NCBI GenBank assembly: GCA_052281595.1
Contig: DAWBRY010000004.1
Span: forward strand, 67,854-131,853
Direction of reading: 5' to 3'
DNA from: Collinsella sp.
Lineage (GTDB): Bacteria; Actinomycetota; Coriobacteriia; Coriobacteriales; Coriobacteriaceae
DNA: 64,000 nucleotides
Positions 31,694 through 64,000 of this stretch are shown in pieces. Under the pieces are notes generated by a model. That model saw only the letters and a program-made list of their open reading frames with translations, did no database searches and was not told the origin of the DNA. The position numbers and the translations under genes were made by a program. Every line of letters begins with the position of its first letter. The stretch's first letter is position 1.

Positions 31694-31694
31694 G

Positions 31695-32436: not shown

Positions 32437-32475
32437 CATAGTTGTACATACATCTACGATGGAGGTACAACTATG
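32437..32475. other. Candidate oriT: 11-bp perfect inverted repeat in an AT-rich patch upstream of mobC.
   Basis: CATAGTTGTAC-atacatctacgatggag-GTACAACTATG, about 160 nt 5' of mobC in a locally low-GC region. Confidence 0.4.
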
Positions 32476-50276: not shown

Positions 50277-52788
50277 GCTGCACCTCATGTCATTCGCACC
50301 CGTCCCCGACACCAAGACGACCGTGCACGTCGTCGGCTTGCCCGACAGCCTGCGCGACGCCCTCTTCACGCTCATGCCCCCGAGGAAAGAGGGCGGCTAC
50401 CTCAACACCAAAGTCCTCAAGGACGACCTGCGCTGCTGGCTCGACCGGGCCGTCGAGCTGAATCCCGTACGCCCCAACGTGCATACCGACAGCTGGCTTA
50501 TCGCCCTCGCCCCCATTGATCTCGCGAAGCTATGCAACGTCATCGCGGTCTGGATCTCCTCCCGCAAGGACATCGATACCCAATCCCCCGCCTACCGCAA
50601 GGTGATGGGGATGCTGCACCCCGAGACGTTCGAAGAGGCCGTGCGTGGCGAAGAGATCCGCCTGTTCAGCGGCGACGGCCGTCCCACGGGCAGGCTCACC
50701 TTCCCCGCATTCTCCGCGCAAGTCGCCGACGCCATCGCCGACATCCCCCTCGAACTCGCCAACGGCATGGTCGAGAACTTCAGCAGAGTCTCACGCGGAA
50801 ACGGAAACGTCTACGAGCTGATTTCCGATATCCACTGGCACAAGGAGGACCCGTGGGCGTTCGCCCTCAGATTCCACGTCGAGTCGCTGCCGGTCGGCCG
50901 CAAGGCAAGGCTCAACATGGATGTCGCCGTCCGCCGCTTCATCGGCAAGCCATGGCAGGACGACCCGTTCCTCAAACACGATGTCAACGCCTACGTCCGC
51001 ACGGAAGGCGGCACGCTCCGCGTCGTCCCCTACGGCTACGACAAACAGAAGCGCGACTTGGCCTGGGACCCCGCGGCCCTGGCGAACTACGAGTTCGCCA
51101 GCGGGACCGGATTGCCCGCAGTCCGCGAGTATCTTGAGGACATGGGCAGGTACGCCCGCGACGGCTCGCAGCCGCAGATCCTATCCCCCTACGCGATGAC
51201 CGCCTCCTGGGCATCGAAGCCTTCGGTCGCAAGCGGGGCATCCGTCATCGACAAGGCCATGTTCTTCGAGGCCGTCGCGGCTCGGCTCAAAGATATCGCG
51301 GAGCCCGTCGGTGCGCTCGACTCGCTTCAACTGACCCATCTCAAGGCGTCCATAGAGGAACCCAGGCAGGCGGATTGGGACAAGGACCCCGTCAGCGCAC
51401 GGGCGAGACAGGAGACCTGGGGCCGGGCCAACCGCGCCAGACTCGCCCGCTGCACCGGCAGGGACAGGGCCGTATTCCAGCTGATCGGCAACCAGGACGA
51501 TGCCCGACTCCTCGATATGGCAAGGGCCGAGATCTCCCGCTTTCTCGGTGGGGAGGGGGCCGTCGACGGCTTCGAGGTCGAGATCGATAACATCCCGGCG
51601 AACGACCTCCTGAACCGCATGGAGAATACCGGCGACAGCCAGGCGAAGATCCGCTGGCGCAAAGTCGCCGCCGCGCTTCCCGAGGCGACCGACCCGACCG
51701 CGTGCATAGTGGTCCTGCCGGGCGCCGAGAGCTACAAGCCCAAGGGCAAAGACGACGGCGGAGACCCCAAGCGCGCCCTGCGCATCGCGTTCGCGAAAAC
51801 CGGGCGCCTGACCCAATTCATCGAACCCGAGGACTCGAAGGACAGTCCCGAGATCCGCGCGCGCGTCGCCGTCCGCGACCTCATGCGCCAGCTCGGTTTC
51901 GTACCCGAACCGGCACGCAATTCGCGCGGCATCGATACCTCGATCCCGGCGATAGGGTTGAAGGTCTACAACTCCGGCAACGGCAAAGCGCGGGCGAGCT
52001 TCCCCTATTGCGTCCGACAGGACATGAGAAGCGGTGCCGTCACCGTGCACTGCCCCCTCCTACCTGACGGAAGCCTACCGTACTGGCGCGCCCTCATCGA
52101 GTTCGCCCGGCTGAGCGGTTCCGAGGGCTTTCCGGACTCCTGCAAGCGGGCGAACGGAATGGCCCTGAAGAGGATGCTCCACGGCATAGTCCGCGCCACC
52201 GGCGACAGGCCGGAACTCCTCCTCGTCAACTCCTACGGCCGCATCCGCCAGAGAGACTGGTGGCCCGGCATCAGCGACTCCGGCCTCGAGTCGGGACCTT
52301 TGAGCTACGGACCGAACGGTTATGAGGAGCCGCTTGGCCTCGCGGGCAGCAAGCTGCGCATCCTGCGTATACGCTCCGGTCTCAACGGCGAGGTCCCCGA
52401 CTGGTTCACGGACGAGGTGGCCGCGGGCGGCGCAGACGACGGCACCGTGCCGAACAGGCGCGACAAGCAGGGACTCTTCAAGATGGACGGCTACTTCCTC
52501 GCGTTGGCCCCGCGACCGGGCGACGCCCAGTACAAATGGTCCGCACGCGGATCGAAGTACGATTCGCCCACCGCGGCGTTCTGCGAGAAGACGATCAACG
52601 AGTACTGCCTTCTGTCGCCCGGTGGTGAGGCCGAGGCGCTTGCCAGCGTCAAATACGCCGAGGCCCTGCGCGGCTGCATGGTGCAGCTCTACAAGAACGA
52701 TATGAGAGTGAACCTTCCCGCCCCGCTCCATCTCGCCGAGCAGGTCGAGGAGTATATCTGGGACTGGGAGCTCACCGGCAGACGGTAG
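50263..52788 (+). CDS. Large (842-aa) uncharacterised protein, third gene of the operon. Candidate pPIWI-RE-like effector (hypothesis).
   Basis: Overlaps the helicase stop. No motif I can assign confidently from sequence alone. Confidence 0.5.
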   Translation: MSDSKLHLMSFAPVPDTKTTVHVVGLPDSLRDALFTLMPPRKEGGYLNTKVLKDDLRCWLDRAVELNPVRPNVHTDSWLIALAPIDLAKLCNVIAVWISSRKDIDTQSPAYRKVMGMLHPETFEEAVRGEEIRLFSGDGRPTGRLTFPAFSAQVADAIADIPLELANGMVENFSRVSRGNGNVYELISDIHWHKEDPWAFALRFHVESLPVGRKARLNMDVAVRRFIGKPWQDDPFLKHDVNAYVRTEGGTLRVVPYGYDKQKRDLAWDPAALANYEFASGTGLPAVREYLEDMGRYARDGSQPQILSPYAMTASWASKPSVASGASVIDKAMFFEAVAARLKDIAEPVGALDSLQLTHLKASIEEPRQADWDKDPVSARARQETWGRANRARLARCTGRDRAVFQLIGNQDDARLLDMARAEISRFLGGEGAVDGFEVEIDNIPANDLLNRMENTGDSQAKIRWRKVAAALPEATDPTACIVVLPGAESYKPKGKDDGGDPKRALRIAFAKTGRLTQFIEPEDSKDSPEIRARVAVRDLMRQLGFVPEPARNSRGIDTSIPAIGLKVYNSGNGKARASFPYCVRQDMRSGAVTVHCPLLPDGSLPYWRALIEFARLSGSEGFPDSCKRANGMALKRMLHGIVRATGDRPELLLVNSYGRIRQRDWWPGISDSGLESGPLSYGPNGYEEPLGLAGSKLRILRIRSGLNGEVPDWFTDEVAAGGADDGTVPNRRDKQGLFKMDGYFLALAPRPGDAQYKWSARGSKYDSPTAAFCEKTINEYCLLSPGGEAEALASVKYAEALRGCMVQLYKNDMRVNLPAPLHLAEQVEEYIWDWELTGRR

Positions 52789-52851
52789 CGATCCGCCCGC
52801 GAAAATGAAATGGGGAGGCCGGGAGATTCGGCCTTCCTATTTCCGTTGTCG

Positions 52852-54696
52852 CTACCGCTTATTCGCCTTGCGTGTATTTCGGGTGCGACCGGCGGACTCT
52901 TTCGCCGAGCCCTTCCGCTTCCCAGGACGAGAGTCGGACGGGCTCGGCTGACGACGAGCGGAGCCCAAGTCGAAGCCGGAGTTTTTCGCAATCCTCGCCT
53001 CAATCTCGGAGCGCCGGATGCCGAGCTCCGATGTGCGGACACGATAACCGCCCTCCTTGCGGACGACATAGAGCTCATGTGGGCCGCAGTCCCAATCGAG
53101 TACGTACCCGGCAAGGAGCATCTTGGCATCCAGATGGTCCTTGGACATCGCGCCGGAGAGCGCAGCCTTGAGGGCGAAGGTGGCCCGAGTCACGATATCC
53201 GCCCGGATCTTCTCCTCGAGGGTTCGAGCCGGCCTTTCGGTCCCCGGTTCAGGGGTACCTCCCTTGCTGTTCTCCAGGGCGCCTTCCAGGGCGGGAGGCG
53301 TGGGGGCGTCGGGGTCCCTGCCGTCCATGAGGTCTCGGATGTAGGCGCGAACCTGCGACTCGAAGCGGCGCGGGCACTCGATCTGGACCGGCTCCTCCAT
53401 CCTGCGCTCGAGGGAATCGTAGAACTCCACGACCTCGCGGCTGGCGATCAGGCGGTTCGGCTCGATCTTGGGGAACACGGTGAGGCCGGCGGCGGAGCGC
53501 ACGCGGGACAGGCCGACGTACAGCTGGCCCTCGGCGAAGACCTTCGTGTGGACGCAGCAGGCGTCGAACGTCAGGCCCTGCGACTTGTGGATGGTGATGG
53601 CGTAGGCGAGCTTGAGCGGGATCTGGGTATAGGTTCCCACGACGGCGGTCATGACCCTGTTGACGGGCCTGCCCTCATCGTCCATCTCGACGACGGCCTC
53701 GGACTTGTTGATCTCCCATCTGTGCCGCTCGATGCGGACCTTCTCGTCCGCCCCGTCGAACTTGACCGTCACGGCGTCCGCGGACGCGTCGGTGACGGTG
53801 CCCTGCGTGCCGTTGACGTAACCCTCCTGAGGGCTGTTCACGAGCGACATCACGCGGGCGCCGCGGCACAGGACGATCCTCTCCGGCGCCATCTTGTCGC
53901 CGTTTGACGCCGTGCCGGTCGCGGCGGCCGCGAACTCGACCTTCGGTGCGTCGAGCGCGTCGACGTTCTCGCGGTTGATCGAATCGGCGATGCGGTTGTT
54001 GGCGCACAGCACCAGCGTGTCCTTCGGCAAGTAGGCGCGGGAGCTCTTCGAGTGCGCGTTGAAGTAATCGAGGCACGACGCGTCGCCGACGCGGGCGCGG
54101 TTCAGGTTGTCGATGAAATCGGGGTCGGATTGGCGCACGACCGTCTTGAGGACGTGAGGCTCGAAATCGAAGCCGGTCCAGTACCTCGACTTGAAGCACC
54201 AGCCCTGGAGGTTTCCGGGATAGAACTTCATCAGCAGCGCGGAGTCGCGTTCGGTCACGACCGGCGGCAGCTGGAAGAAATCGCCGACGAGGACCACCTG
54301 CTTCGCGCCGTTGCGCGTCATGGACTGGGAGATCATCCCCATCACGTGGTCGAACAGGTCGATGCGGCACATCGAGATCTCGTCGATGATGATTACCTTC
54401 GCGGCGTCGAGCACCTTGCGGGACCCCTTGGGGCCATCGGGGGCGCAGACCCCCGGCGCGATTTTCAGCGTGCGGTGGATCGTCGAGCCGTCCGTGAGGT
54501 TCAGCGCGGCGATGCCGGTGGGCGCCAGGGCGAGGAAATCGACGTTGCGCGCCTTCAGATCCGATATGAAGGCGTTGAGCACGTAGCTCTTGCCCGTGCC
54601 GGCGTTGCCCGAGAGGGACACGTTCCTCCCGTCCCTCAGCGCGCTCAGCGCCTCGGCCTGTTCCGGTGTAAAGCGGTCACCGTCTGCCATTTCCAT
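52852..54696 (-). CDS. PIF1/RecD-family SF1 DNA helicase with a basic disordered C-terminal tail.
   Basis: SGNAGTGKSYVLNA (Walker A), IIIDEISMC (Walker B) and VLVGDFFQLPPV (motif III). 614 aa. Confidence 0.8.
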   Translation of the reverse strand: MEMADGDRFTPEQAEALSALRDGRNVSLSGNAGTGKSYVLNAFISDLKARNVDFLALAPTGIAALNLTDGSTIHRTLKIAPGVCAPDGPKGSRKVLDAAKVIIIDEISMCRIDLFDHVMGMISQSMTRNGAKQVVLVGDFFQLPPVVTERDSALLMKFYPGNLQGWCFKSRYWTGFDFEPHVLKTVVRQSDPDFIDNLNRARVGDASCLDYFNAHSKSSRAYLPKDTLVLCANNRIADSINRENVDALDAPKVEFAAAATGTASNGDKMAPERIVLCRGARVMSLVNSPQEGYVNGTQGTVTDASADAVTVKFDGADEKVRIERHRWEINKSEAVVEMDDEGRPVNRVMTAVVGTYTQIPLKLAYAITIHKSQGLTFDACCVHTKVFAEGQLYVGLSRVRSAAGLTVFPKIEPNRLIASREVVEFYDSLERRMEEPVQIECPRRFESQVRAYIRDLMDGRDPDAPTPPALEGALENSKGGTPEPGTERPARTLEEKIRADIVTRATFALKAALSGAMSKDHLDAKMLLAGYVLDWDCGPHELYVVRKEGGYRVRTSELGIRRSEIEARIAKNSGFDLGSARRQPSPSDSRPGKRKGSAKESAGRTRNTRKANKR

Positions 54697-54994
54697 ATCC
54701 CGTCATCCGTTCGACCAGTAACAGGGAATTGATACCCGCGCAAGCGAAAAAATATACGCTGAACGGGGGTTTTGCAGAAACTATAGGAAGTTTTTGAAGG
54801 CGGGGCGGATATGCTTCCGCGCATTTCCCCGCGCGCCCGTATACCCCGATGCGCAGACGGGTACGATAGCCTCAGAATGATGTGGGTCCCGCGCAGCCGA
54901 ACGGCTTGTCTTTCCCATGCGGGCATCGCGGATTTCTTTCATGGGTGGGACTTCGGTCCGAGAACAGGCCGCGATCTCGTAAGGGGTCGCGGCC

Positions 54995-55135
54995 TGTTCA
55001 TCTGTGCGTCTATGTCTTTATGCGTGCGCGCATATGTGCAATGGTGCTGGTGTGTATATATGCGTGTGCGCGTATGTGCCTCGGCGTATGTATGCCGATG
55101 TGCGGATACGCATCCGGACAGATGTGCCGGTGATC
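54995..55135. repeat. ATGCG/TGTGCG-rich repeat, copy 5, 5' of the helicase.
   Basis: tgtgcgtctatgtctttatgcgtgcgcgcatatgtgcaatggtgctggtgtgtatatatgcgtgtgcgcgtatgtgcc…. Confidence 0.55.
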
Positions 55136-55635
55136 TATACGGGAAAACCGGCGCCGGTCTCGCATGAGCTCTTCCGCCTCAGCATCGCCCATATCAGCTC
55201 GATTGCCGGGGCGACGCGCACCTGCCGGAATTCGGAAGTGTCGTAGCGCTTCCGCAGGGCGCCGCGGGCGTCGGGCGAGTACACGGCCGCCCCCTTGGGC
55301 AGCATACCTTTGGAAGCCAGCGAGTCGGCGAGCTCGAGCGGGCACACCAGCCAGTTCTCATCGCCCTCGAACGTCCTGCCGTGGCCGCTCGTGAAATCGT
55401 CCATACACGACTTGACCTCGACGAACGTGAAGGTGCCGGACTCGAGCTCGGCGGCGGTCGCGTGGTTCGACGATCGGTCACGCGGACGATGCGGCCTGTA
55501 GGCCACGAAATCGACCCGGCGGGCGTCATCGACCCAGACCTCGCTCGCGACCAGGGCGTTCTCGCGGCACAGCCTCGCCCATACCTTCTCGGAAAGCTCG
55601 GCGGTCACCTCGCCGCGGTTTCGTTTCCCCTCCAT
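55135..55635 (-). CDS. PD-(D/E)xK nuclease-fold protein (VRR-NUC/MmcB-like).
   Basis: RBS AAGGGGAG before ATG 55635. …RRVDFVAYRP…TFTFVEVKSCMDDF (D…EVK). Confidence 0.5.
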   Translation of the reverse strand: MEGKRNRGEVTAELSEKVWARLCRENALVASEVWVDDARRVDFVAYRPHRPRDRSSNHATAAELESGTFTFVEVKSCMDDFTSGHGRTFEGDENWLVCPLELADSLASKGMLPKGAAVYSPDARGALRKRYDTSEFRQVRVAPAIELIWAMLRRKSSCETGAGFPV

Positions 55636-55784
55636 GGGGCACACTCCCCTTCGATGTAAAAAGCCGCCCGACGGTCTGCGCGACGTGCGGGCGGCCCGCC
55701 CCGGTACTACTCCTCGGAACCCTCCGGCTTGCGGGGCCGGAGGGGCACCGGCTTGATGGTCGACAGGTCCATATGCCTGCGAGC

Positions 55785-56162
55785 CTAGAAGAATATAAGC
55801 CAGATCGTACCCAAGAGCAGGGAGACATATCCCACAGCGGTCACGAGGAAGTCTATGAAGGCGAGGGCCGCGGCAGTATCGACCCGGATGCCACAGGGGG
55901 CCAAGTTCGATGCGAACCCATGCAGGGGATACATGGCACAGATGAGGCATATCGATTCGAGACCTGCCGCCAACAGGGGATTCACCCCCGCCAGCTCCCT
56001 CGGATAGAACAAGCCCATCAGGACGGAATCCGCCACCAGCGCCGCCCAAATCAGGAACACGCCGACCTTAAATGCCTTGGTGTCCTCGACCAATGCCAGG
56101 GGCATCATGCAGCCGAAGAAATCGAGCAGCAAGGCCGAGGCGATCAGCGGGACGACCATCAC
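55785..56162 (-). CDS. Polytopic small membrane protein downstream of flotillin.
   Basis: 125 aa, ≥3 hydrophobic helices. Start overlaps the flotillin stop. Confidence 0.5.
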   Translation of the reverse strand: MMVVPLIASALLLDFFGCMMPLALVEDTKAFKVGVFLIWAALVADSVLMGLFYPRELAGVNPLLAAGLESICLICAMYPLHGFASNLAPCGIRVDTAAALAFIDFLVTAVGYVSLLLGTIWLIFF

Positions 56163-57565
56163 TCCACCGAGTTCTCGGCGGAGTCGGCATCGATATCGGG
56201 GTTCGAGATCAGACCGTTCAGCAGGGACGGCAGGTCGATTCCCGTGCTGTCCTTCAGGCCGGATGCGACCTGATCGACAATCGATGTGGTCTCCTTTACG
56301 AGTTTTTGCGCGTTGCCCGATCCGTACATCTTGATGGAATCGACGGCAGTGAGGGGCTTCGCAACCTGCTCGGCTACCTTGGGCATGATGTCGATGTAGC
56401 GGTTGGCGAGCAGGTAGGGGTTATCCATGCCGTTGTACGCCTCGGCCTGGGCCTTGATTCCCGCCGCGACGCCCTCGCCGTGGGCCTTCTCGGCCACACC
56501 CTCGGACTCGCCCTTCAGGCGCGTGGCCTCGGCCTCGGCCTTCGCGCGGGCCTGGATGCCCTCGGCGTCCTTCTGGGCGGAATACAGCTCGGCGTCGGAT
56601 TGGTTCTGACGCTCGATGCGGGCGGCCTCGGCCTGCTTCGTGCGCTTGTAGAGGTCGGCTTCGGCCGCCTGCTCTGCGGCGTAGCGGTCGGCCTCGGCCT
56701 GCTTCTTCACGGTCGCGTTCAGCTCGCGCTCCCTCACGTCCGCCTGGCGCTCGGCGAGCTCGACCTTCTTGGTCTCCGCGGCGATCTCGGCCTCCTGCTG
56801 GGCGATGTAGAGCTCGCGCTGCTTCTCGGCCGTCACGGTGGCCTTCACCATATCGGCCTCGGCCTTCGCCTTGTCGGCCTGCTTCTTGAGGTCGGCCTGC
56901 TTCAAGTCGAGCTGGTTCTGGCGGATGGCGACCTCCTCGGCCGCCTTGATCTGCGCCAGCTCGGCTTCCTTTTTAATCTCGGCCGCTTGATCGGCGCCCA
57001 TGGAGCGGATGATGCCCTGGGAGTCGGAGAAGTCCTGCACATTGAAGGTGCGCAGCTCGAGGCCGAGATTGGCGAGGTCATCCTTGGAGCCGCCGAAGAC
57101 CTTCGCGTTGAAGCTCTCACGGTCGCGCATGAGCTCCTTGAGGTCCATCTGGCCGATGACCTCGCGCATCTTGCCCAGCATGACCTCGGTGACCTGGCGG
57201 GTCATCTCCTCTTTGTCCAAATTCAGGTAGTTCTTGGACGCGGTCTCGATCAGCTCGGGGGTCTGGCCGATCTGGAAGTTCGCCACGGCGCAGGCGTGGA
57301 TGAGGATTGCGTCCTGCGTCGGGATATCGTTCTCGGTGGTCAGCTGCACCTGCACGGCACCGAGCGAGAGGGTGTCCACGCGCTGGAGGAGCGGGATCAC
57401 GAAGGTTCCCTTGCCGGAGACGGAGCGCATCTTGCCGGCGCCGGAGACGATCATGAGCTTATCCGGCGGGCATTTGCGCCAGCAGCTCTCGAACACCAGC
57501 ACGACGGCCATGATGCCGACGGCTGCGGGGAGCAGGTTGAAGATCAAAGATTCGAAAAGCATCAT
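56159..57565 (-). CDS. Flotillin / SPFH (band-7) domain protein.
   Basis: N-terminal TM, SPFH core (…VQVQLTTENDIPTQDAILIHACAVANFQI…) and a long EA-rich coiled coil (AEAEATRLKGESEG…). Confidence 0.8.
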   Translation of the reverse strand: MMLFESLIFNLLPAAVGIMAVVLVFESCWRKCPPDKLMIVSGAGKMRSVSGKGTFVIPLLQRVDTLSLGAVQVQLTTENDIPTQDAILIHACAVANFQIGQTPELIETASKNYLNLDKEEMTRQVTEVMLGKMREVIGQMDLKELMRDRESFNAKVFGGSKDDLANLGLELRTFNVQDFSDSQGIIRSMGADQAAEIKKEAELAQIKAAEEVAIRQNQLDLKQADLKKQADKAKAEADMVKATVTAEKQRELYIAQQEAEIAAETKKVELAERQADVRERELNATVKKQAEADRYAAEQAAEADLYKRTKQAEAARIERQNQSDAELYSAQKDAEGIQARAKAEAEATRLKGESEGVAEKAHGEGVAAGIKAQAEAYNGMDNPYLLANRYIDIMPKVAEQVAKPLTAVDSIKMYGSGNAQKLVKETTSIVDQVASGLKDSTGIDLPSLLNGLISNPDIDADSAENSVE

Positions 57566-57682
57566 AGGGTTTCCTTCCCTTCAAGGGCGGCTCGGGCAGA
57601 GCCGCCCGGTTATAGATAACTCCGTCGGGGGCGGACCGGGCTCACGATCGGCACGACACCGGTTCAGTCCAACCGTCGGGAC

Positions 57683-58075
57683 TCAAAGGCGGCGGCGATC
57701 ATGTAGCTCCAGCAATTCGTATAAGAGGAGAGGCAAGGCCATCGCGAAGAGAGACGGCAGTAAGATGTAGTAAAACGCTGATCTTATAATGATGTCGTCG
57801 GCCGTCATCAGGGCCTCGAATGCTTTCAAGGCCTCGTCTGGTTCCGCATCGGAAACCAATTCGCCCTGACTGCTTTTCATATCGGCTTGTTCGGTCGCGT
57901 CGCCGACAGGCGCACTTCCGTTCAGGTCGACGTCGACGACGACATGATCACCGTCGTCGGAGATCACGGCGGCGGTCGCGTTCTCGGCGTAAGCCGCGGG
58001 CGCGATGCAGCCGAACGATGCTGCGGCTATGGCCATGGCGACGAGCGGCCCTGCCGCCCTTGCGGGTATCCTCAT
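57683..58075 (-). CDS. Secreted/anchored small protein (signal peptide plus C-terminal TM).
   Basis: MRIPARAAGPLVAMAIAAASFGCIAPAAYA…C-terminal YYILLPSLFAMALPLLLY. Confidence 0.45.
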   Translation of the reverse strand: MRIPARAAGPLVAMAIAAASFGCIAPAAYAENATAAVISDDGDHVVVDVDLNGSAPVGDATEQADMKSSQGELVSDAEPDEALKAFEALMTADDIIIRSAFYYILLPSLFAMALPLLLYELLELHDRRRL

Positions 58076-58199
58076 TTCCGTTCTCCATTCCTTTTCGGGG
58101 CGCGCCCTCCCTCGGCGCTGTCCGTTTCCCCTCAGGTGGTTATTCCCCGTATCCGGCGGCTTAAACGCCGGATACGGAAAACGGCCGGAAACAAGGCGC

Positions 58200-58335
58200 C
58201 CACCGAGGCTGGAGCCCGATGGGCGCGTGTGCGGCTATGTGCATGTGCGTAGATATGCCGACGTGCATGTGTTCCATTGTGCGAGTGTGCGTATGCGCAA
58301 CTGCGTATGTGTGCGTGTATGCGTATGTGCGATTG
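58200..58335. repeat. ATGCG/TGTGCG-rich repeat, copy 6.
   Basis: gtgcggctatgtgcatgtgcgtagatatgccgacgtgcatgtg…gtgtgcgtatgcgcaactgcgtatgtgtgcgtgtatgcgtatgtgcgattgcgg. Confidence 0.55.
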
Positions 58336-58341
58336 CGGAAC

Positions 58342-58560
58342 CTACAGGAGCGTATCGAAACCGGGCCTGCCCAGATCCTGGCGAATGCTGCCGGTCGTGA
58401 GCTCGACGTGCGGGCGGCCGTCGGCGCCGAAGACGAGGTTCGTGGCGCCTGCCCCGGGGACCACCGTATCCACCTGCCCCGTCGTGAGATCGTACCGCAT
58501 GTTGCCGACCTGCTGCTCGATATGCGCCGTGCCGTCGGGTTTCAGAACGTTCCTGATCAT
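58342..58560 (-). CDS. Small hypothetical protein flanked by repeat copies 6 and 7.
   Basis: RBS AAAGGTGG before ATG 58560. 72 aa. Confidence 0.35.
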   Translation of the reverse strand: MIRNVLKPDGTAHIEQQVGNMRYDLTTGQVDTVVPGAGATNLVFGADGRPHVELTTGSIRQDLGRPGFDTLL

Positions 58561-58564
58561 GGCG

Positions 58565-58645
58565 TGCCACCTTTACGCATATATGCGGATGCGGATGCAT
58601 GGGTATGTGCGGATGCGCGGTTGAGCGTTTGCGTGTGTATGCCAA
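58565..58645. repeat. ATGCG-rich repeat, copy 7.
   Basis: tacgcatatatgcggatgcggatgcatgggtatgtgcggatgcgcggttgagcgtttgcgtgtgtatgcc. Confidence 0.5.
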
Positions 58646-58679
58646 AGCGCCTGCGGGCGCATCCGCACCCCCCATGGTA

Positions 58680-59732
58680 TCAGTGTCGGGGCGCGGAGTC
58701 CTTCGAGACCTCGCGGGCAGCGTCGGCGACCTTGCCGGGCGACGGCTTCTCGGCCGCCGAGGACGCGGCGGCCTTCCGGGCGACGGCGGCGATGGAGGCC
58801 GGGGTCCTCTCCGGCCTCACCCAGCCGTAGGCCTCGGCCATCTCCTCCATGTCGACGATATCCCGATTGAGATATACCGGCGAGATCTCGCCGGTATAGG
58901 CCTGCTCCAAGTCCTCGACGATCGCGTTCTCCGCGAGGAAGTTGTCGCTCGCCAGGCGCCAGTCGCCGTCGGTCTGCTGGAAGAGGACCGGGTCGGCCCC
59001 CTCGTCGGTGTAGTAGACGAGCGTCGACGCTCCTTGCGCCTCGCCGGCCTCGACGGCATACGAGAACGTCTTCGCCTTCAGGTCGGCGATGCGGAAGGCG
59101 GCGTCGCCGACGCCCCAGCCCTCGGCGAGATCGGCGTCGACGGCATATGCATCAGCCTGCGACACGCTATCCAAGCCGCCCATGATGCAGTAGCCGTCCA
59201 CCATGCGGAATACGCCAAGGGTGCGCGTATCGGGACCGTTGCCCCGAGCCCGAACGGAATCCAGGGAGTCCTTCAGGCCGACCGCAGCCGGATAGGTCGA
59301 GCACAGGTAGACCAGGCCGTCCGCCGGGACGTCGCCGTGGACGCCGCGGTCGAAGACGCAATAGCCCTTTCGCCTCGCGCTGTCCAGTGCGGATTCCAGG
59401 GCGCCCAGGGCGGGGGCGGCCTCCTCGACCATGAGCACATCGGCAAGCGCCGAGACGAGTTCCCCGCGATAGGTGTTCTGCGGAACCTTGCCTCCGAGCG
59501 CCTTGCAATCGCTCAGGAACCGCTCCCTTCCGCGACCGTCGTCAAAGCTATCGAAAAGGTCCACGGGGATCGTCTCGATAGCCTCCTTCCACCCGTTCAA
59601 CGTGAAGCCAACGGTTCGGCCCAGTTCGTTCAAAAAGCCGACCTCGACGGTCTCGTGAACCAAATGGCCGACCGAAACGATACCGCGGTCGAAGGCCTCG
59701 TTCAGCATGATCTCGAGCTCTCGCCTGTCCAT
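58680..59732 (-). CDS. Hypothetical protein carrying an array-like tail (…AAVARKAAASSAAEKPSPGKVADAAREVSKDSAPRH) outside the array.
   Basis: 350-aa ORF with an Ala/Lys-rich C-terminal tail resembling the array tails. Confidence 0.5.
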   Translation of the reverse strand: MDRRELEIMLNEAFDRGIVSVGHLVHETVEVGFLNELGRTVGFTLNGWKEAIETIPVDLFDSFDDGRGRERFLSDCKALGGKVPQNTYRGELVSALADVLMVEEAAPALGALESALDSARRKGYCVFDRGVHGDVPADGLVYLCSTYPAAVGLKDSLDSVRARGNGPDTRTLGVFRMVDGYCIMGGLDSVSQADAYAVDADLAEGWGVGDAAFRIADLKAKTFSYAVEAGEAQGASTLVYYTDEGADPVLFQQTDGDWRLASDNFLAENAIVEDLEQAYTGEISPVYLNRDIVDMEEMAEAYGWVRPERTPASIAAVARKAAASSAAEKPSPGKVADAAREVSKDSAPRH

Positions 59733-59802
59733 CTTGAAACTCCATTCCGTTGCCGGGGCGCTTCAGGCCCGTGTGCGTACTCCCACAAGATGCTAACGCG
59801 GC

Positions 59803-60147
59803 CTAATGACGGGGCTGTTTGCGCGAGCCCGCGCTTTCCGAACGGGAAGCGCCGTCGGGCCGCACCGTCCGCAGGCGCCGCGCAAGCGCCCGGATCTCGA
59901 AGCACGCGTCGAAGCGGTGTGGCATCCCCTCGCCCGCCCAGAGCATCCCGGCGCGCCCGGTCGCGATCCGGTCGACGCGGGTGAAGTCCAGCCCCAGCAT
60001 ATCGCAGATGCCCCTCACCTCGTCATGGACCGGCGAGCAGGCGCACCGCATGGCGCCATCGCCCGAGACCTCGCCGTCGAGCCCGAGGCCGTACAGCTCG
60101 TCGCCGTAGAGCGCGGCGATGTGCTCCTCGGCCTCACCGGCGGACAT
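59803..60147 (-). CDS. Hypothetical protein.
   Basis: RBS GGAGAAG before ATG 60147. The upstream ORF extension is repeat sequence. Confidence 0.35.
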   Translation of the reverse strand: MSAGEAEEHIAALYGDELYGLGLDGEVSGDGAMRCACSPVHDEVRGICDMLGLDFTRVDRIATGRAGMLWAGEGMPHRFDACFEIRALARRLRTVRPDGASRSESAGSRKQPRH

Positions 60148-60184
60148 GTCCTCGATCTTCTCCACGGGAAACCCCAATCCCTCA

Positions 60185-60300
60185 GGGAGGGCGCGCGGCC
60201 GTGCGCCCTCGTATGTGCGTATCTGTGCGGGTATGCGCATGCGCAAACGCGCAGATGTGCGGACGCGTATGTGCATACCCATGCGGACATCAGCGAGGAA
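60185..60300. repeat. ATGCG-rich repeat, copy 8.
   Basis: gtatgtgcgtatctgtgcgggtatgcgcatgcgcaaacgcgcagatgtgcggacgcgtatgtgcatacccatgcgg. Confidence 0.55.
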
Positions 60301-60490
60301 GCCCGCGGACGAGCGATGCGAAGTCCGCATCGACGCGCGACCGGTCCAGCTCCCAGAGGTCGGCGATGAAGTCGAGCAGGACCCTCACCGTCCCGGTGCG
60401 CTCGGGTCGCGGGAGGCGCGGCACCAGCAGGACGACGGAGTAGAGGGCCTGCTCATAGCTGCGCCCCTCCTGGGGGGCACGGCGGCTCAT
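60290..60490 (-). CDS. Small (66-aa) ORF translationally coupled to the DnaC-like gene (ATGA overlap).
   Basis: MSRRAPQEGRSYEQALYSVVLLVPRLPRPERTGTVRVLLDFIADLWELDRSRVDADFASLVRGLPR. Confidence 0.3.
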   Translation of the reverse strand: MSRRAPQEGRSYEQALYSVVLLVPRLPRPERTGTVRVLLDFIADLWELDRSRVDADFASLVRGLPR

Positions 60491-61518
60491 CGCCCGGCTC
60501 CCTCGGCATCGCAGGGCGCCATGCGGCGGTCCGGTCCGTCCATCTTGACGCGCTCGGTCATCTCGGCCAGGCGCGAGACGATAGCCAGGGCGTCCTCCTT
60601 GCGGCCGTACTCCGACAGCACCGCGGCGAGGCCCGCCTGGGTGTACTGGCTTGTCACGATCGTGGCGCGCTCGGCCTCGTAGCGGCCGTTGACGATCTGG
60701 AACAGCTTCGCGAGCACCCACTGGGTCGAGGAGTCCTTGCCCAGGTCGTCGATGATCAGGACCGGGACGTTCACGTACCTGCGGATGACGTCGGCCTCGC
60801 TGTCGCCGCCCTTGTCGAAGGTCGAGCGGAGCTCGGTCATGAGGTCCGCCGAGACGACGAACCTGACGCCGTGCTTGGGCCTGCCCTTCGGGACCGGGCG
60901 GTACGCCCAGTTGCCGAAACGGGGGTCGAGGCGCGAGCCGGCGTAGTCGTAGGCGATGCAGCATGCCCGCTCGGTCTTGCCCACCCCGCGCGGCCCGTAG
61001 ATGTACAGCCCGCCGCCGCGCGCGAGGCGCGCGTCGTAGGCATGCTCCGGGGCGGCCTCGCCCTCGGCGATGCGGCGGGCGAAGCGCGGCGGGATGCCGG
61101 TCTTGCGCACGACCGCCTCATGGAACGCGCGGTCGGTCGCGGCGAGGGTGGCCACGTCCGCGACCTCGAGCGGCGGCAGGGCGCCGAGGGCGGGAAGTGT
61201 GGCGGGCGCGGCGGCCGGGGCCTCGGGCACGGGTGCCGGAACCGGAATGGGTGCCGTGGGCGCGGGCGCGGCGGCGCGGGGCTCCGGTTCGAGGTAGTGC
61301 GGCCCCTTCTCGTGCCATGCGTCGGCCTCCGCCTTCCAGTCGAGCACCGGCGTGCCGTCCGCCCGACGCCAGACACGGGCGTCGTGGTAGGCGTAGAAGA
61401 AGTTTCCGTAGAAGGCGTTGGCGGCGCCGCGGTCGTCGTAGCCCTTCCCGTGGACGTAGGCCTCGACTTCCTCGAGCGTGGGCTTGGGCGGCCTCGCCTG
61501 CGCTTGCGTCTCGTTCAT
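60487..61518 (-). CDS. DnaC/IstB-like AAA+ helicase-loader ATPase with an N-terminal 'phage conserved' domain.
   Basis: Walker A IYGPRGVGKTERA. Walker B VLIIDDLGKD. The N-terminal segment VEAYVHGKGYD…FYAYHDARVWRRADGTPVLDWKAEADAWHEK is homologous to the C-terminus of the upstream initiator. Confidence 0.7.
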   Translation of the reverse strand: MNETQAQARPPKPTLEEVEAYVHGKGYDDRGAANAFYGNFFYAYHDARVWRRADGTPVLDWKAEADAWHEKGPHYLEPEPRAAAPAPTAPIPVPAPVPEAPAAAPATLPALGALPPLEVADVATLAATDRAFHEAVVRKTGIPPRFARRIAEGEAAPEHAYDARLARGGGLYIYGPRGVGKTERACCIAYDYAGSRLDPRFGNWAYRPVPKGRPKHGVRFVVSADLMTELRSTFDKGGDSEADVIRRYVNVPVLIIDDLGKDSSTQWVLAKLFQIVNGRYEAERATIVTSQYTQAGLAAVLSEYGRKEDALAIVSRLAEMTERVKMDGPDRRMAPCDAEGAGR

Positions 61519-61540
61519 CTCGGTTCTCCCTCCGTCTGAG

Positions 61541-62953
61541 CTAATCGTCGTTGAACTCGCTGAAATCGCTGTCGGCGGCCACGCGCTCGGCGACGCTCAT
61601 GGCCCTCTTCGCGCCAGACGGGCCGGACTTACGGGCGGAGCGCGGCGCTGGCTTGCGGCGCCAGGTGTTCACGACGTTCTTCCATCGGACGATCGGCACG
61701 CCGCCCGCGCGGACCCAGCCGGTGGCCTCGTAATAGTCGAAGAACTCGTCGGGGTCGAGGACGCGGTAGGCGGGATTGTCCGGGTCGGGGGCGTCATAGC
61801 CCTTCTCGTGCACGTACTTGCGGACCTGCTCGCGGGTCGGCGCCTTCGACGGCGCGGCCTTCTCCTCCGCCGCGGCCACGGCGCCGGAATCGACGAGATC
61901 GGCCCTCAAGTCGTAGAACCTCAGGCCGTTTCCGGCGGCGAGGAACTTGGGCAGCGACATGATGTAGCGGCCGTCGGTGTGCGATGCCGCGTACTCGCGG
62001 CGGTAGGTGTCGTAGGCGCGGCCGATGCGCGGGAGCGTCCAGCCGTCCGCCAGCGCGCGGGCATAAGCCTCGGCGACGTCGGCGAAGACTTCGGCCTTGC
62101 CGATGGACATGCGCATGAGGGCAAGCACCTCGGCGTTGGAGACCGGGACCTCCGTCTCGAGCCCAAGGCCCTCCTCCGATGCGACCTTCACGACCGTGAC
62201 CGAGTCGCCCGCGCAGCCCGACATCACCGAGTTTTCGACAGATGGCAGCGCGTCCGCGCGCCCTCTCCCACTAACATCAATAACAACATCCTTGTTAGTG
62301 TCGCAAAAATTGGTACACGGTGAAAACGTTTCCCCAGTTGGGCCCGTGTACCAATTTTTGGTACACGGTGAATCTAGTTGCAAACTAACGTTAGTTTGGT
62401 CGCCCGTGTACCAATTTTTGGTACACGGAGAATCCTGCGGGTTGTTGATAACCTCGTTTTCGACCCCCTCCCCCGGCAAGTTTTCAACAGCGCCCGCCCC
62501 AGTCGATTTCGAGTTATCGACAGGCACGAAACGGCGCTCCTCGGGGATCTCGGCATTGACCACGTAGCGGTTCGAGAGATAGCGCCCTTGGCCCTGCGCG
62601 CGACCCTGGTGCACGCTGATGTAGCCGCACTCGACCAGGGTTCGGCGGTGGCGGTAGTAGGTGTTGCGCGACATCGCGAGGTGGGTGCAGATCGTGTCCA
62701 CGGACGGGAACAGCGAATGGGTGCCCGCGCCGGCATGGGCGCAGAAGTAGGCGTAGACGCCCTTGGCCGACGACGACAGGCGGGTGTCCTCGGTCGCCTT
62801 GGCCGAGACGATGCCGAAGCCGCGCTCCATGAGGTCGCCGCCGAAGACGACGACCGCGCCGTCGCGGTCCAGGATCTCGAACGTCTCGTCGAGCTCGTCG
62901 CGGGTGCGGCCGGCGGGCTGCGCCGCCATGCCGCGCTCCTTTGCGCTACTCAC
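61541..62953 (-). CDS. Phage-type replication initiator / replisome organizer (N-terminal HTH) with the origin iterons embedded in its linker.
   Basis: N-terminal …GVYAYFCAHAGAGTHSLFPSVDTICTHLAMSRNTYYRHRRTLVECGYISVHQ (wHTH). The linker encodes SPCTKNWYTG ×3 from the palindromic DNA repeats. The C-terminal domain is shared with the loader's N-terminus. Confidence 0.6.
   Translation of the reverse strand: MSSAKERGMAAQPAGRTRDELDETFEILDRDGAVVVFGGDLMERGFGIVSAKATEDTRLSSSAKGVYAYFCAHAGAGTHSLFPSVDTICTHLAMSRNTYYRHRRTLVECGYISVHQGRAQGQGRYLSNRYVVNAEIPEERRFVPVDNSKSTGAGAVENLPGEGVENEVINNPQDSPCTKNWYTGDQTNVSLQLDSPCTKNWYTGPTGETFSPCTNFCDTNKDVVIDVSGRGRADALPSVENSVMSGCAGDSVTVVKVASEEGLGLETEVPVSNAEVLALMRMSIGKAEVFADVAEAYARALADGWTLPRIGRAYDTYRREYAASHTDGRYIMSLPKFLAAGNGLRFYDLRADLVDSGAVAAAEEKAAPSKAPTREQVRKYVHEKGYDAPDPDNPAYRVLDPDEFFDYYEATGWVRAGGVPIVRWKNVVNTWRRKPAPRSARKSGPSGAKRAMSVAERVAADSDFSEFNDD
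62295..62430. repeat. Iteron cluster / candidate oriV. Three copies of the palindrome CCGTGTACCAATTTTTGGTACACGG (one is a half-site) plus the palindrome CAAACTAACGTTAGTTTG, in a ~45% GC island.
   Basis: Copies at 62299-62321, 62342-62367 and 62402-62427. Second palindrome at 62379-62396. All lie inside the initiator gene. Confidence 0.6.
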
Positions 62954-63335
62954 GGCGCTGCACCCCCTCCCGCACGACCTCGGCGGGGATCGGGACCATG
63001 CAGAGCTCCCCGTCCCGGTCCTCGCCGTAGGGCGTCACGATGTCGACGATGTAGCCGCCGCGCTCGAGCGCGGCCAGCGCCTCGTCGTAGTCGCGGCGCG
63101 GCAGGCCGGCCTCGGCCGCCGCGATGTCGCGCGCCGGGCACTCGATCGCCACCGACATGGGATCGCGCGCCACGATGCAGCAGAAGACCGACTTCTGCTC
63201 GAGCGTGAGGTCGCCGTCGTCGAAGATCGGGCGGATACGCCGCGCCCAGAACCTATCGCCGACCGTCATCCTCGCCGTGCCGGCCTGCCTCCCGGCTGAC
63301 TCTTTCCTTCCCATATGCCATCCCTCCATGGTCAT
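62946..63335 (-). CDS. Hypothetical protein, first gene of the replication operon.
   Basis: 129-aa ORF immediately 3' of repeat copy 9. Confidence 0.4.
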   Translation of the reverse strand: MTMEGWHMGRKESAGRQAGTARMTVGDRFWARRIRPIFDDGDLTLEQKSVFCCIVARDPMSVAIECPARDIAAAEAGLPRRDYDEALAALERGGYIVDIVTPYGEDRDGELCMVPIPAEVVREGVQRRE

Positions 63336-63349
63336 CCATCGCGGGCCCG

Positions 63350-63485
63350 CGCCCGCATCCTGTGTCTGTATCTACCCAAATGTGCAGATGCGTAATCGCA
63401 CAAATGCGCAAAAACGAAAATGTGCGGTTGCGTATATGCGCATATGCGTACATGCGTATGTATGCTGATGTGTGGGATGAAAAAG
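63350..63485. repeat. ATGCG-rich repeat, copy 9, 5' of the replication operon.
   Basis: tgtatctacccaaatgtgcagatgcgtaatcgcacaaatgcgcaaaaacgaaaatgtgcggttgcgtatatgcgcatatgcgtacatgcgtatgtatgc. Confidence 0.55.
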
Positions 63486-63513
63486 GCACAGGCCGTTTGG
63501 ACCCGTGCCTGAA

Positions 63514-63876
63514 TCAACGCGCGTCGACCTTGAGGAAAGTCGATACCTTGATCTCGCTCTGCCCGCCGGCCTCGGCCCTCCTCGGACGGCCGTCGAGAAA
63601 CGATGCCGCCCTCGCCTCGGCCAGCTCCCCCTCGAGCACCACGGCGACGCCGGGGGCGAGGGAGGCCGCCACGGCCATCGCCACCGGGCCGAACGCGACG
63701 CAGTGGAACCTATGCTCCACGCGGCGCGAGCCCGCCGCCTTCTCCTGGGACAGGCAGAAGCGCGCGTGCGCGGGCCCCCTGTCCGGCTCCGTGAACTCCA
63801 CGGGCCCGAACACGAGCCCCGACACCACGATCCTGTTGACCGTTTCCAAACCCCGGCTCCTTCCTTCCCAAGCCAT
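63514..63876 (-). CDS. OB-fold SSB-like protein, tentative.
   Basis: …VNRIVVSGLVFGPVEFTEPDRGPAHARFCLSQ…RRVEHRFHCVAFGPVAMAVAASLAPGVAVVLEGEL…IKVSTF resembles SSB/PriB β-strand spacing. There is no acidic tail. Confidence 0.35.
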   Translation of the reverse strand: MAWEGRSRGLETVNRIVVSGLVFGPVEFTEPDRGPAHARFCLSQEKAAGSRRVEHRFHCVAFGPVAMAVAASLAPGVAVVLEGELAEARAASFLDGRPRRAEAGGQSEIKVSTFLKVDAR

Positions 63877-64000
63877 CCGTCTCGGAGGTTAAGCCGCCGA
63901 CTGCGGCGGCCTGGGGCTCTTTATGCCCACTGAGGGGGAGTTTCAAGGTAGCGCGCAGAGATGTGGTGTAAGAGGCGGGGCATGCCCCGCCTCTTCCCTT

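What the first reader, a model, noticed from the sequence alone, without database searches (positions are those of the whole stretch)
62295..62430. Replication origin embedded inside the initiator gene: palindromic iterons in an AT-rich island
Three copies of the perfect 24-bp palindrome CCGTGTACCAATTTTTGGTACACGG (one is a half-site), spaced ~48 and 60 bp apart, lie in a ~45% GC stretch. A second palindrome, CAAACTAACGTTAGTTTG, lies between them.

All sit inside ORF 61541..62953 (HTH replisome-organizer type), where they encode the repeated peptide SPCTKNWYTG in the inter-domain linker. An ori carried within the initiator's own linker, followed by a DnaC-like loader, is the lambda-O/phage-type arrangement. 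Here it is placed on a MOB/Par-bearing element, which suggests a phage-plasmid-like backbone.
Basis: partly seen in the sequence, partly recalled or inferred. Interest (0 to 1): 0.6.

Follow-up and report, generated by a model that had tools for sequence, protein, structure and literature searches.

The report
Replication origin inside its initiator gene
A cluster of palindromic protein-binding repeats in an AT-rich patch inside a replication-initiator gene of a mobile element from gut Coriobacteriia is most likely that element's replication origin, an arrangement long known from phage lambda and SPP1, so it is a sound but ordinary find.

Summary
Window 62296-62428 carries three 25-bp sites (CCGTGTACCAA-NNN-TTGGTACACGG). 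Two have perfect 11-bp arms and one has a degenerate arm. An 18-bp perfect palindrome, an AT-rich inverted repeat and five flanking GTYGAWAAC 9-mers lie in the same 44-45% GC island within ~70% GC DNA. All sit in frame in the minus-strand gene 61541-62953, after its HTH_36 DNA-binding domain. A DnaC-like loader gene follows.

The sites are selected as DNA, not as peptide:
- The same CCGTGTACCAA...ACACGG sites recur in frame in initiators about 30% identical, from genomes of 30-47% GC, using codons that are rare there.
- In two close relatives the central AAA is flipped to TTT. This changes the peptide but keeps the palindrome.
- Third-codon positions are more conserved here than in the rest of the gene.
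- The recognition helix co-varies with the repeat type.

Intragenic repeats after the DNA-binding domain are a family-wide trait. I read this as a lambda-O/SPP1-G38P-type origin embedded in the initiator gene. The carrier looks like a conjugative or mobilisable element (relaxase in the window, integrase and coupling protein in a relative), not a phage-plasmid. Par genes were not found. Replication itself is untested. It is a new member of a known kind.

The parts
61541..62953 (-). Initiator (replisome-organiser-type) gene, 470 aa. The HTH_36 domain is aa 57-112 (window 62618-62785). The repeats lie in the following segment, aa ~145-235.
   Evidence: Pfam HTH_36 E 1e-16; PHROG replication initiation, DnaD-like and O-like families.
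62404..62428 (.). Site 1: a 25-bp dyad CCGTGTACCAA-NNN-TTGGTACACGG with perfect 11-bp arms. It encodes PCTKNWYTG.
   Evidence: As single-stranded DNA the hairpin folds at -11.2 kcal/mol, z -5.1.
62344..62368 (.). Site 2: identical to site 1. Its central triplet is flipped (AAA to TTT on the coding strand) in relatives L007 and L019.
62296..62320 (.). Site 3: one perfect arm (62310-62320) and one degenerate arm (7/11). The coding strand reads CCGTGTACCAATTTTTGCGACACTA and encodes PCTNFCDT.
   Evidence: (I3, I4). It is the only site left in the 434-aa variants.
62381..62398 (.). Perfect 18-bp palindrome CAAACTAACGTTAGTTTG between sites 1 and 2. It is specific to this lineage and is lost together with site 1 in the two-site variants.
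62269..62300 (.). AT-rich inverted repeat CACTAAC-18 nt-GTTAGTG (loop about 28% GC), next to site 3. It is the candidate DNA-unwinding element. It encodes the N/I/K-rich peptide that also follows the sites in distant relatives.
   Evidence: The unwinding role is inferred, not shown.
62231..62239 (-). GTYGAWAAC 9-mer (GTCGAAAAC), the copy on the downstream side (in gene terms) of the site cluster.
   Evidence: 5 matches in 64 kb, all within 62231-62521; expected 0.96; 0 of 100 shuffles reached 5.
62444..62521 (.). Four more GTYGAWAAC 9-mers: 62444-62452 on the + strand, and 62456-62464, 62480-62488 and 62513-62521 on the - strand. The first two form an imperfect dyad. What binds them is unknown.
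   Evidence: (D5, D16). They are less strictly conserved among relatives than the 25-bp sites.
60487..61518 (-). DnaC/IstB-like AAA+ helicase-loader gene, immediately downstream of the initiator gene.
   Evidence: Its aa 5-71 resemble aa 363-434 of the initiator.
62946..63335 (-). 129-aa ORF of unknown function. Its stop overlaps the initiator's start codon by 8 nt, and the pairing is conserved in relatives.
63514..63876 (-). SSB-like OB-fold gene at the head of the module.
   Evidence: (Pfam SSB E 1.7e-6, above cutoff).

Best explanation
Window 62231-62521 is the vegetative (theta-type) replication origin of a mobile element of gut Coriobacteriia, embedded in the coding sequence of the element's own initiator.

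Proposed mechanism, with all steps inferred:
1. The initiator's N-terminal HTH_36 winged-helix domain binds, probably as dimers, to the three 25-bp dyad sites CCGTGTACCAA-N3-TTGGTACACGG.
2. The resulting nucleoprotein complex destabilises the adjacent AT-rich stretch (62269-62300).
3. The initiator's C-terminal part, together with the DnaC-like loader encoded next door, delivers the host replicative helicase. The module's SSB-like protein covers the opened strands.

What is shown here is the site architecture, its uniqueness in the window, selection acting at the DNA level, co-variation of the recognition helix with site type, and the family-wide habit of carrying repeats in this position.

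What is not shown is binding, unwinding, helicase loading or replication itself.
For: 1. Architecture and chance. Five exact half-sites lie in 120 bp and none elsewhere in 64 kb, against 0.33 expected. A unique 18-bp palindrome and five GTYGAWAAC 9-mers are confined to the same 300 bp. GC is 0.44 there against about 0.70 in the flanks.

2. Gene context. The order is SSB-like gene, 129-aa ORF, HTH_36 initiator, DnaC-like loader.

3. Selection on the DNA rather than the peptide.
- Initiators 28-32% identical carry CCGTGTACCAA-N8-(A/T)(C/T)ACGG three or four times in frame. They come from L004 (GC 0.47), L014 (Christensenella MAG, GC 0.46) and L023 (Clostridioides mangenotii, GC 0.30).
- In L023, Pro CCG, Thr ACC and Thr ACG are only 12%, 7% and 5% of their codon families, yet all three perfect sites use them. 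In the window, TGT is 10% of Cys codons but is used in 3 of 3 left arms.
- Among 8 full-length close relatives, variable third-codon positions number 2 of 59 inside the region against 69 of 412 outside it (Fisher p 0.0055).
- In L007 and L019 the centre of site 2 is AAA to TTT. The peptide changes from KN to NF while the dyad is kept.

4. Recognition helix. PCT-type linkers go with [KR]N[TS] in the helix, 7 of 10 against 8 of 144 (p 1.9e-6, not corrected for phylogeny).

5. Family trait.
- 57 of 147 representative relatives have a peptide 4-mer repeated at least 3 times just after the DNA-binding domain(s).
- Clostridium phage vB_CpeS-1181, Carnobacterium plasmid pL21581-3 and Staphylococcus phage IMEP5 each have at least three direct DNA repeats at the same place in the gene.

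6. Precedent. SPP1 oriL (iterons plus an AT-rich unwinding element) is embedded in gene 38, which encodes the replisome organiser (PMC5737612). Lambda ori inside gene O is established knowledge.

7. Copy number. Three-site forms dominate the protein clusters: 3723 member sequences, against 11 with two sites and 30 with one.
Against: - There is no experimental or coverage evidence that this element replicates autonomously.
- Variants with two sites, or only one, exist in several independent samples. Either multiple sites are not strictly required or those copies are defective.
- Site spacing (48 and 60 bp here; 33-54 bp in relatives) shows no constant helical phasing.
- A second AT-rich repeat region lies in the intergenic gap just upstream of the operon (63351-63510) and could be the true unwinding site.
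- The structure model was too poor (mean pLDDT 32) to confirm that the repeat-coding segment is a disordered inter-domain linker.
- GC skew is uninformative.
- The co-variation statistic ignores phylogenetic relatedness.
Confidence: 0.68

Rival explanations
1. The dyads are genuine binding sites for the initiator, but they serve mainly as an operator or roadblock for autoregulation, or for copy control (handcuffing). Initiation and unwinding occur elsewhere, for example in the AT-rich intergenic repeat region 63351-63510 upstream of the operon.
For: The sites lie inside the initiator's own transcription unit, so bound protein would meet RNA polymerase. A second low-GC island with 8-nt periodic repeats sits directly upstream. 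One-site variants persist in nature.
Against: The intergenic repeat motif recurs in at least three to five intergenic gaps of the element (58.3, 60.2 and 63.4 kb, also about 51.8 and 52.4 kb). That looks like a promoter or regulatory motif rather than a unique origin. The intragenic cluster has its own adjacent AT-rich stretch, and that stretch is conserved as an N/I/K-rich peptide even in distant relatives. In the characterised analogue SPP1, the intragenic repeats are the origin.
Confidence: 0.15
2. The sites are bound by a different protein: the 129-aa product, the relaxase (as an oriT-like site), a partition protein or a host factor. They are not origin iterons.
For: Palindromes of this size are also typical of operators, centromere-like sites and the inverted repeats of oriT. 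The element has a relaxase and a NikA-like gene. Nothing here shows which protein binds.
Against: The relaxase genes are about 30 kb away (29633-32453). The motif travels with the HTH_36 initiator gene in lineages whose neighbouring genes differ. The recognition helix of the initiator co-varies with the motif. No Par protein was detected.
Confidence: 0.1
3. The repeat is a peptide motif under protein-level selection (a Cys-containing P-C-T-x-x-x-D/Y-T linker repeat, for example for metal binding or protein interaction), and the DNA symmetry is incidental.
For: The peptide P-C-T-[KN]-x-x-[DY]-T recurs in many lineages, and several proteins have about four Cys in the linker.
Against: The same codons are used whether genomic GC is 30% or 66%, including codons rare in the host genome. 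Thr is ACC in the left arm but ACG in the right arm, as the dyad requires. The AAA-to-TTT flip changes KN to NF yet preserves the dyad. Variants with one site lose most of the Cys.
Confidence: 0.04
4. The repeats are a selfish insertion (MITE-like or palindromic element) or an assembly artefact with no function.
For: The copy number of the units varies between otherwise about 90-95% identical genes.
Against: The units are always in frame and found only in this gene. Deletions are exact repeat-to-repeat unit losses (60 and 108 bp), and one site always remains. The motif is present in initiators about 30% identical from another phylum. It is seen in more than 40 independent assemblies.
Confidence: 0.03

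Closest known systems
Bacillus phage SPP1 oriL within gene 38 (replisome organiser G38P, with loader G39P, helicase G40P and SSB G36P)
   Same: The origin consists of repeats bound by the initiator (the AB boxes) plus an adjacent AT-rich unwinding element, embedded in the initiator's own gene. The initiator has no AAA+ domain, works with a separate loader, and the module encodes its own SSB (PMC5737612).
   Different: G38P belongs to a different Pfam family (pfam09524 according to that paper) from HTH_36. The SPP1 module also encodes its own helicase. The repeats are unrelated in sequence. The carrier is a virulent phage, not an integrated conjugative-type element.
Phage lambda ori inside gene O (O initiator plus P loader)
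   Same: Several sites with dyad symmetry, each bound by an initiator dimer, lie in the part of the gene between the N-terminal DNA-binding domain and the C-terminal domain that recruits the loader, and are flanked by an AT-rich region (established knowledge, not retested here). Weak PHROG hits to 'replication initiation O-like' families were found (E 5e-5 and 5.5e-4).
   Different: Lambda has four 19-bp sites and lambda P is not an AAA+ DnaC-type loader. Sequence similarity to O is only marginal. The host here is Gram-positive and high-GC.
Replisome-organiser plus DnaC modules of integrative mobilisable elements and related elements of Firmicutes (such as Tn6104 and streptococcal IMEs)
   Same: A phage-type theta-replication module (replisome organiser and DnaC) is carried by an integrated element with conjugation or mobilisation functions. 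The module is proposed to maintain the excised form (review PMC5704250).
   Different: According to that review, replication of those elements has not been studied, and no origin is mentioned in the passages I read. The present element is from Coriobacteriia (Actinomycetota), and its putative origin can be pinpointed.
HTH_36 initiators of Firmicutes phages and plasmids (Staphylococcus phage IMEP5 / phi11-like, Clostridium phage vB_CpeS-1181, Enterococcus EF62phi, Carnobacterium pL21581-3)
   Same: They share a homologous N-terminal domain (27-40% identity). In the three records examined (IMEP5, vB_CpeS-1181, pL21581-3), three or more direct repeats lie inside the gene just after that domain.
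   Different: Their repeats are tandem 15-24-bp direct repeats of unrelated sequence, not spaced 25-bp dyads. Their partner genes differ (DnaB-type helicase, ParM or ParA next door).

Membership tests
Origin embedded in the initiator gene (lambda O / SPP1 G38P type) | Several repeated sites clustered inside the initiator's coding sequence, downstream of its DNA-binding domain | tested here: met
   Three 25-bp dyads at 62296-62428, in frame, at aa 176-218, after HTH_36 (aa 57-112).
Origin embedded in the initiator gene (lambda O / SPP1 G38P type) | An AT-rich unwinding element adjacent to the repeats | tested here: met
   100-nt windows at 0.44-0.45 GC in about 0.70 GC DNA. The 18-nt loop of the inverted repeat 62269-62300 is about 28% GC. 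Actual unwinding was not tested.
Origin embedded in the initiator gene (lambda O / SPP1 G38P type) | The initiator binds the repeats specifically | not testable with these tools
   Only indirect support: the recognition helix [KR]N[TS] co-varies with PCT-type repeats, and there is DNA-level conservation.
Origin embedded in the initiator gene (lambda O / SPP1 G38P type) | The fragment supports initiator-dependent replication | not testable with these tools
Origin embedded in the initiator gene (lambda O / SPP1 G38P type) | A helicase-loader gene immediately downstream of the initiator gene | tested here: met
   60487-61518: IstB_IS21 E 1.8e-11, phrog_50 'DnaC-like helicase loader' E 6.4e-38. 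NCBIfam hits are all below their curated cutoffs.
Pfam HTH_36 (PF13730) initiator / DnaD-like replisome-organiser proteins | Match to the family profile above its curated threshold | tested here: met
   60.9 bits against a cutoff of 25, E 1e-16, full profile 1-55. 1631 relatives at E<=1e-3.
Lambda O protein family proper | Significant sequence or structural similarity to lambda O | tested here: inconclusive
   Only weak PHROG 'O-like' hits (E 5e-5 and 5.5e-4). No PDB relative by sequence. The structure model is unusable (pLDDT 32).
Phage-plasmid | Phage structural or packaging genes together with plasmid maintenance (Par) genes on one replicon | tested here: not met
   No capsid, tail or terminase families and no ParA/ParB families among about 60 ORFs scanned with Pfam and 9 with PHROGs. 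Many ORFs have no hit at all, so the absence is not absolute.
Integrative conjugative / mobilisable element | Relaxase, coupling protein and integrase on one integrated element | tested here: inconclusive
   A relaxase (29633-31693) and a NikA-like gene (31695-32453) are in the window. An integrase, an HTH_17 protein and a TraG/TrwB coupling protein flank the same module in L005, which is 90-97% identical over 12 kb. However, homology to L005 and to every other relative stops at window 63946, so the window's own integrase was not seen and the element's ends were not mapped.

The most novel reading that the evidence does not exclude
One 25-bp dyad iteron (CCGTGTACCAA-N8-ACACGG type) and its matching recognition helix have been kept together across HTH_36 initiators that are only about 30% identical. 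These initiators occur in two phyla (Actinomycetota Coriobacteriia and Bacillota Clostridia) and in genomes of 30-66% GC. That would define an unusually conserved initiator-iteron pair, a portable 'origin-in-gene' cassette that drives theta replication of excised conjugative elements in gut anaerobes, for which few replicons are available as genetic tools.
Probability: 0.4. Interest if true: 0.45.

Novelty: new member of a known kind. Interest (0 to 1): 0.3.

Why it matters
If it is functional, the roughly 3.5-kb module (SSB-like gene, 129-aa ORF, initiator with its internal origin, DnaC-like loader) would be a defined theta replicon for Eggerthellaceae and Coriobacteriaceae, gut bacteria with few genetic tools. 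It would also be a documented case of an integrated conjugative-type element keeping a phage-type origin for maintenance after excision.

The cross-phylum conservation of the dyad, read through rare codons, is a neat illustration of a DNA signal overriding codon bias. It also gives a simple sequence rule (repeats right after the HTH_36 domain) for locating origins in a family with at least 1631 relatives at E<=1e-3 among 50%-identity representatives.

It does not change any concept. Origins inside initiator genes have been known since lambda.

Tried and rejected
- GC skew at 100-nt and 2-kb scales. There is no interpretable inflection, the window ends 1.6 kb beyond the site, and skew follows gene orientation. 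Dropped as uninformative.
- AlphaFold model of the initiator from the shallow 14-sequence alignment. Mean pLDDT was 32, so it was unusable. No fold search was run, and the 'disordered linker' claim stays unconfirmed.
- PDB sequence search: no relative found.
- NCBIfam search: no model for the initiator.
- Literature search for the motif: only unrelated primers and eukaryotic or viral sequences. No paper in the held library describes this iteron.
- Public scans for two half-sites 25-55 nt apart. Many hits were unrelated tandem arrays that merely contain CCGTGTACCAA: 50-bp arrays in about 50 gut-metagenome contigs and an 'Alistipes' MAG, 25-bp arrays in a Lachnospiraceae MAG next to a phosphoribosyltransferase-like ORF (my reading of its translation, no family search run) or a glycosidase, and 18-bp arrays in Kitasatospora and Oscillospiraceae. 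At first these looked like classical intergenic iterons. I rejected them as evidence because no initiator gene is adjacent.
- Reading the GTYGAWAAC 9-mers as DnaA boxes. TGTCGATAA matches TGTGGATAA at 8 of 9 positions, but the other copies have 2-3 mismatches and the Coriobacteriia DnaA box is unknown to me. Left open.
- blastn against phage and plasmid collections: no close DNA relative. Only protein-level relatives of the N-terminal domain were found.
Full report
**What is there**

The + strand of window 62294-62434 holds three direct copies of a 33-nt unit. They start at 62294, 62342 and 62402, so the spacing is 48 and 60 bp. Copies two and three contain the 25-bp sequence CCGTGTACCAATTTTTGGTACACGG. 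This is a dyad with perfectly complementary 11-bp arms and a 3-nt centre.

The first copy (62296-62320) has one perfect arm and one arm matching at 7 of 11 positions. On the coding strand it reads CCGTGTACCAATTTTTGCGACAC. It is therefore a full-length imperfect site rather than a half-site.

The 11-mer CCGTGTACCAA occurs five times in the window, all between 62310 and 62428. It occurs nowhere else in 64 kb at up to one mismatch. The expected number is 0.33, and none of 100 shuffles reached five.

Other features lie in the same island:
- The perfect 18-bp palindrome CAAACTAACGTTAGTTTG (62381-62398) sits between sites and is unique in the window.
- An inverted repeat CACTAAC-18 nt-GTTAGTG (62269-62300) with a loop of about 28% GC abuts the imperfect site.
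- Five copies of a second motif, GTYGAWAAC, lie at 62231, 62444, 62456, 62480 and 62513 and nowhere else in the window. The expected number is 0.96, and none of 100 shuffles reached five.
- GC falls to 0.44-0.45 here, against about 0.70 on either side.

**Gene context**

Everything lies in the minus-strand ORF 61541-62953 (470 aa).
- Residues 57-112 match Pfam HTH_36 (E 1e-16, 60.9 bits against a cutoff of 25). The N-terminal third hits PHROG families annotated as replication initiation protein, DnaD-like helicase loader and, weakly, O-like initiator.
- The sites encode SPCTKNWYTG twice and SPCTNFCDTN once, at residues about 175-218.
- Immediately downstream is a DnaC/IstB-like AAA+ protein at 60487-61518 (phrog_50 E 6e-38).
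- Upstream are a 129-aa ORF, whose stop overlaps the initiator's start, and an SSB-like gene.
- The last ~70 residues before the initiator's C-terminal tail resemble the first ~70 residues of the loader (39% identity, E 5e-11).

**Carrier element**

The window also has a MobA/VirD2-type relaxase (29633-31693) with a NikA-like gene, a second SSB, AbiEii, Fic and HNH genes, and a pPIWI_RE island.

A contig that is 90-97% identical and colinear with window 52657-63946 has a tyrosine integrase, an HTH_17 protein and a TraG/TrwB coupling protein just beyond the SSB-like gene.

Near-identical initiator genes (94-98% at the DNA level) occur in Eggerthella, Gordonibacter and Collinsella assemblies. 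That fits a horizontally mobile element.

I found no Par proteins and no phage structural genes in about 60 ORFs scanned, though many have no family hit at all. The best label is an integrative conjugative or mobilisable element, not a phage-plasmid. One caveat: every relative loses homology to the window exactly at 63946. The window's own integrase was therefore not seen.

**Are the repeats a DNA signal or a peptide?**

Four lines of evidence say DNA.

1. Distant relatives carry the same nucleotides. These initiators are only 28-32% identical. They come from a 47% GC metagenome contig (L004), a Christensenella MAG (L014, 46% GC) and Clostridioides mangenotii (L023, 30% GC; the same sequence is in an IMG/VR contig, L008). 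Each has three or four in-frame sites of the form CCGTGTACCAA-N8-(A/T)(C/T)ACGG in the same position of the gene.
   - In L023, CCG is 12% of Pro codons, ACC is 7% and ACG is 5% of Thr codons. All three perfect sites still use CCG...ACC...ACG. Thr is ACC in the left arm and ACG in the right arm, as the dyad demands.
   - In the window, TGT is 10% of Cys codons yet is used in all three left arms.
2. Third-codon positions are conserved. Among eight full-length close relatives they vary at 2 of 59 positions inside the repeat region, against 69 of 412 in the rest of the gene (Fisher p 0.0055).
3. The centre of site 2 can flip. Three of the eight variable positions inside the region are a single event: in L007 and L019 the centre of site 2 changes from AAA to TTT. 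This turns the peptide KN into NF but leaves the dyad intact. It is what a hairpin-templated inversion would produce (the mechanism is my inference).
4. The initiator's recognition helix tracks the repeat type. I pooled 147 of the 50%-identity representatives with seven initiators from loci examined here; 154 of these gave a domain match. Ten have two or more PCT motifs in the linker. Seven of these ten have [KR]N[TS] in the recognition helix, against 8 of the other 144 (Fisher p 1.9e-6, uncorrected for phylogeny).

**A family habit**

57 of 147 representative relatives have some peptide 4-mer repeated three or more times at residues about 220-320, just after the DNA-binding domain or domains. 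The repeat sequences are very diverse.

Three annotated replicons with homologous initiators each have three or more direct DNA repeats at that place in the gene:
- Clostridium phage vB_CpeS-1181, next to ParM;
- Carnobacterium plasmid pL21581-3, next to ParA;
- Staphylococcus phage IMEP5, with a replicative helicase and SSB.

**Copy-number variants**

Protein clusters with three sites hold 3723 member sequences, clusters with two sites hold 11, and clusters with one site hold 30.

The two-site allele lacks exactly 60 bp (site 1 plus the 18-bp palindrome). The one-site allele lacks exactly 108 bp. Both deletions run from repeat to repeat, and one site is always kept.

This is the behaviour of tandem iterons, not of an inserted MITE. 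It also shows that three sites are not indispensable for the gene to persist.

**Interpretation**

The architecture comprises several dyad sites for the initiator, an adjacent AT-rich stretch, the initiator gene wrapped around them, a loader next door and an SSB in the module. This matches the origin-in-initiator design of lambda (ori in gene O, established knowledge) and of SPP1. In SPP1, oriL with its AB-box iterons and unwinding element is embedded in gene 38, and a 356-bp fragment suffices for replication in vitro (PMC5737612).

Replisome-organiser plus DnaC modules on integrated mobilisable elements of Firmicutes have already been catalogued, and they were proposed to maintain the excised form (PMC5704250).

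I therefore conclude, at about 0.68 confidence, that 62231-62521 is the theta-type origin of this element. Binding, unwinding, helicase loading and replication are all inferred.

The main rival (about 0.15) is that the sites are autoregulatory or copy-control sites and that initiation occurs in the AT-rich intergenic region 63351-63510. Against this, the repeat motif of that region recurs in several other intergenic gaps of the element, which suggests a promoter or regulatory role.

**Novelty and score**

The specific iteron is not described in any paper of the held library. Its conservation across two phyla, against codon bias, is a nice detail. The kind of feature is textbook, however.

My verdict is a new member of a known kind, with interest 0.3.

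Noticed in passing
window 61652-61867 (initiator aa 363-434) and 61306-61506 (loader aa 5-71): The initiator's C-terminal ~70-aa module is 39% identical (E 5e-11) to the N-terminal ~70 aa of the adjacent DnaC-like loader. This is a shared domain with no Pfam model, and it may be the part through which both contact the same partner.
   Followed up: partly
window 58288-58331, 60216-60246, 63388-63459 (also ~51779, ~52355): Several intergenic gaps of the element carry 8-nt periodic repeats of the TGCGTATA / TGTGCGTA / ATGCGCA type in low-GC patches. They could be an element-wide operator or promoter motif, and this region is the main alternative location for the origin.
   Followed up: partly
window 46575-54696: A pPIWI_RE defence island (Z-domain protein at 46575-50276; X/MID/RNaseH pPIWI protein at 50065-52788) lies next to a PIF1/Dda-like helicase (52852-54696). 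The island is conserved next to the replication module in relatives (L005, L006, L007).
   Followed up: no
window 63946-64000: All of the roughly 40 related loci lose homology to the window exactly at 63946. The remaining 55 nt contain a GC-rich hairpin (AAGAGGCGGGGCATGCCCCGCCTCTT) and match a Collinsella aerofaciens record at 100% in three places. This may be a module or element boundary, or a dispersed repeat.
   Followed up: partly
L009, L013, and about 50 of L033-L111 (for example L098 1617-2078); L010 6684-6745, L017 600-785: CCGTGTACCAA is also part of unrelated tandem arrays: a 50-bp unit repeated up to 12 times in many human-gut metagenome contigs (about 50% GC, one binned as Alistipes), and a 25-bp unit (GGTACCGTGTACCAAAACGGCAAAA) at two loci of one Lachnospiraceae MAG. 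Neither is next to an initiator gene.
   Followed up: partly
proteins P0016-P0162: Many relatives of the initiator have two tandem HTH_36 domains, with the best match at residues ~120-230, as does P0013/L004. The Coriobacteriia protein has one.
   Followed up: no
window 20882-23330, 26570-26953, 56159-57565: Cargo-like genes: an AbiEii toxin, a Fic/DOC protein, an HNH endonuclease, and an SPFH/flotillin-like protein inside the conserved block that follows the replication module.
   Followed up: no
L007 10001-11800 (GCA_009741535.1 contig VOFE01000754.1): In this NCBI assembly the same module is broken into fragments. The initiator is fused to the upstream ORF and truncated after site 3 by a one-base insertion in the T run of that site, and the loader, flotillin and helicase genes are split. 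This is either a decaying copy or a low-quality assembly.
   Followed up: no
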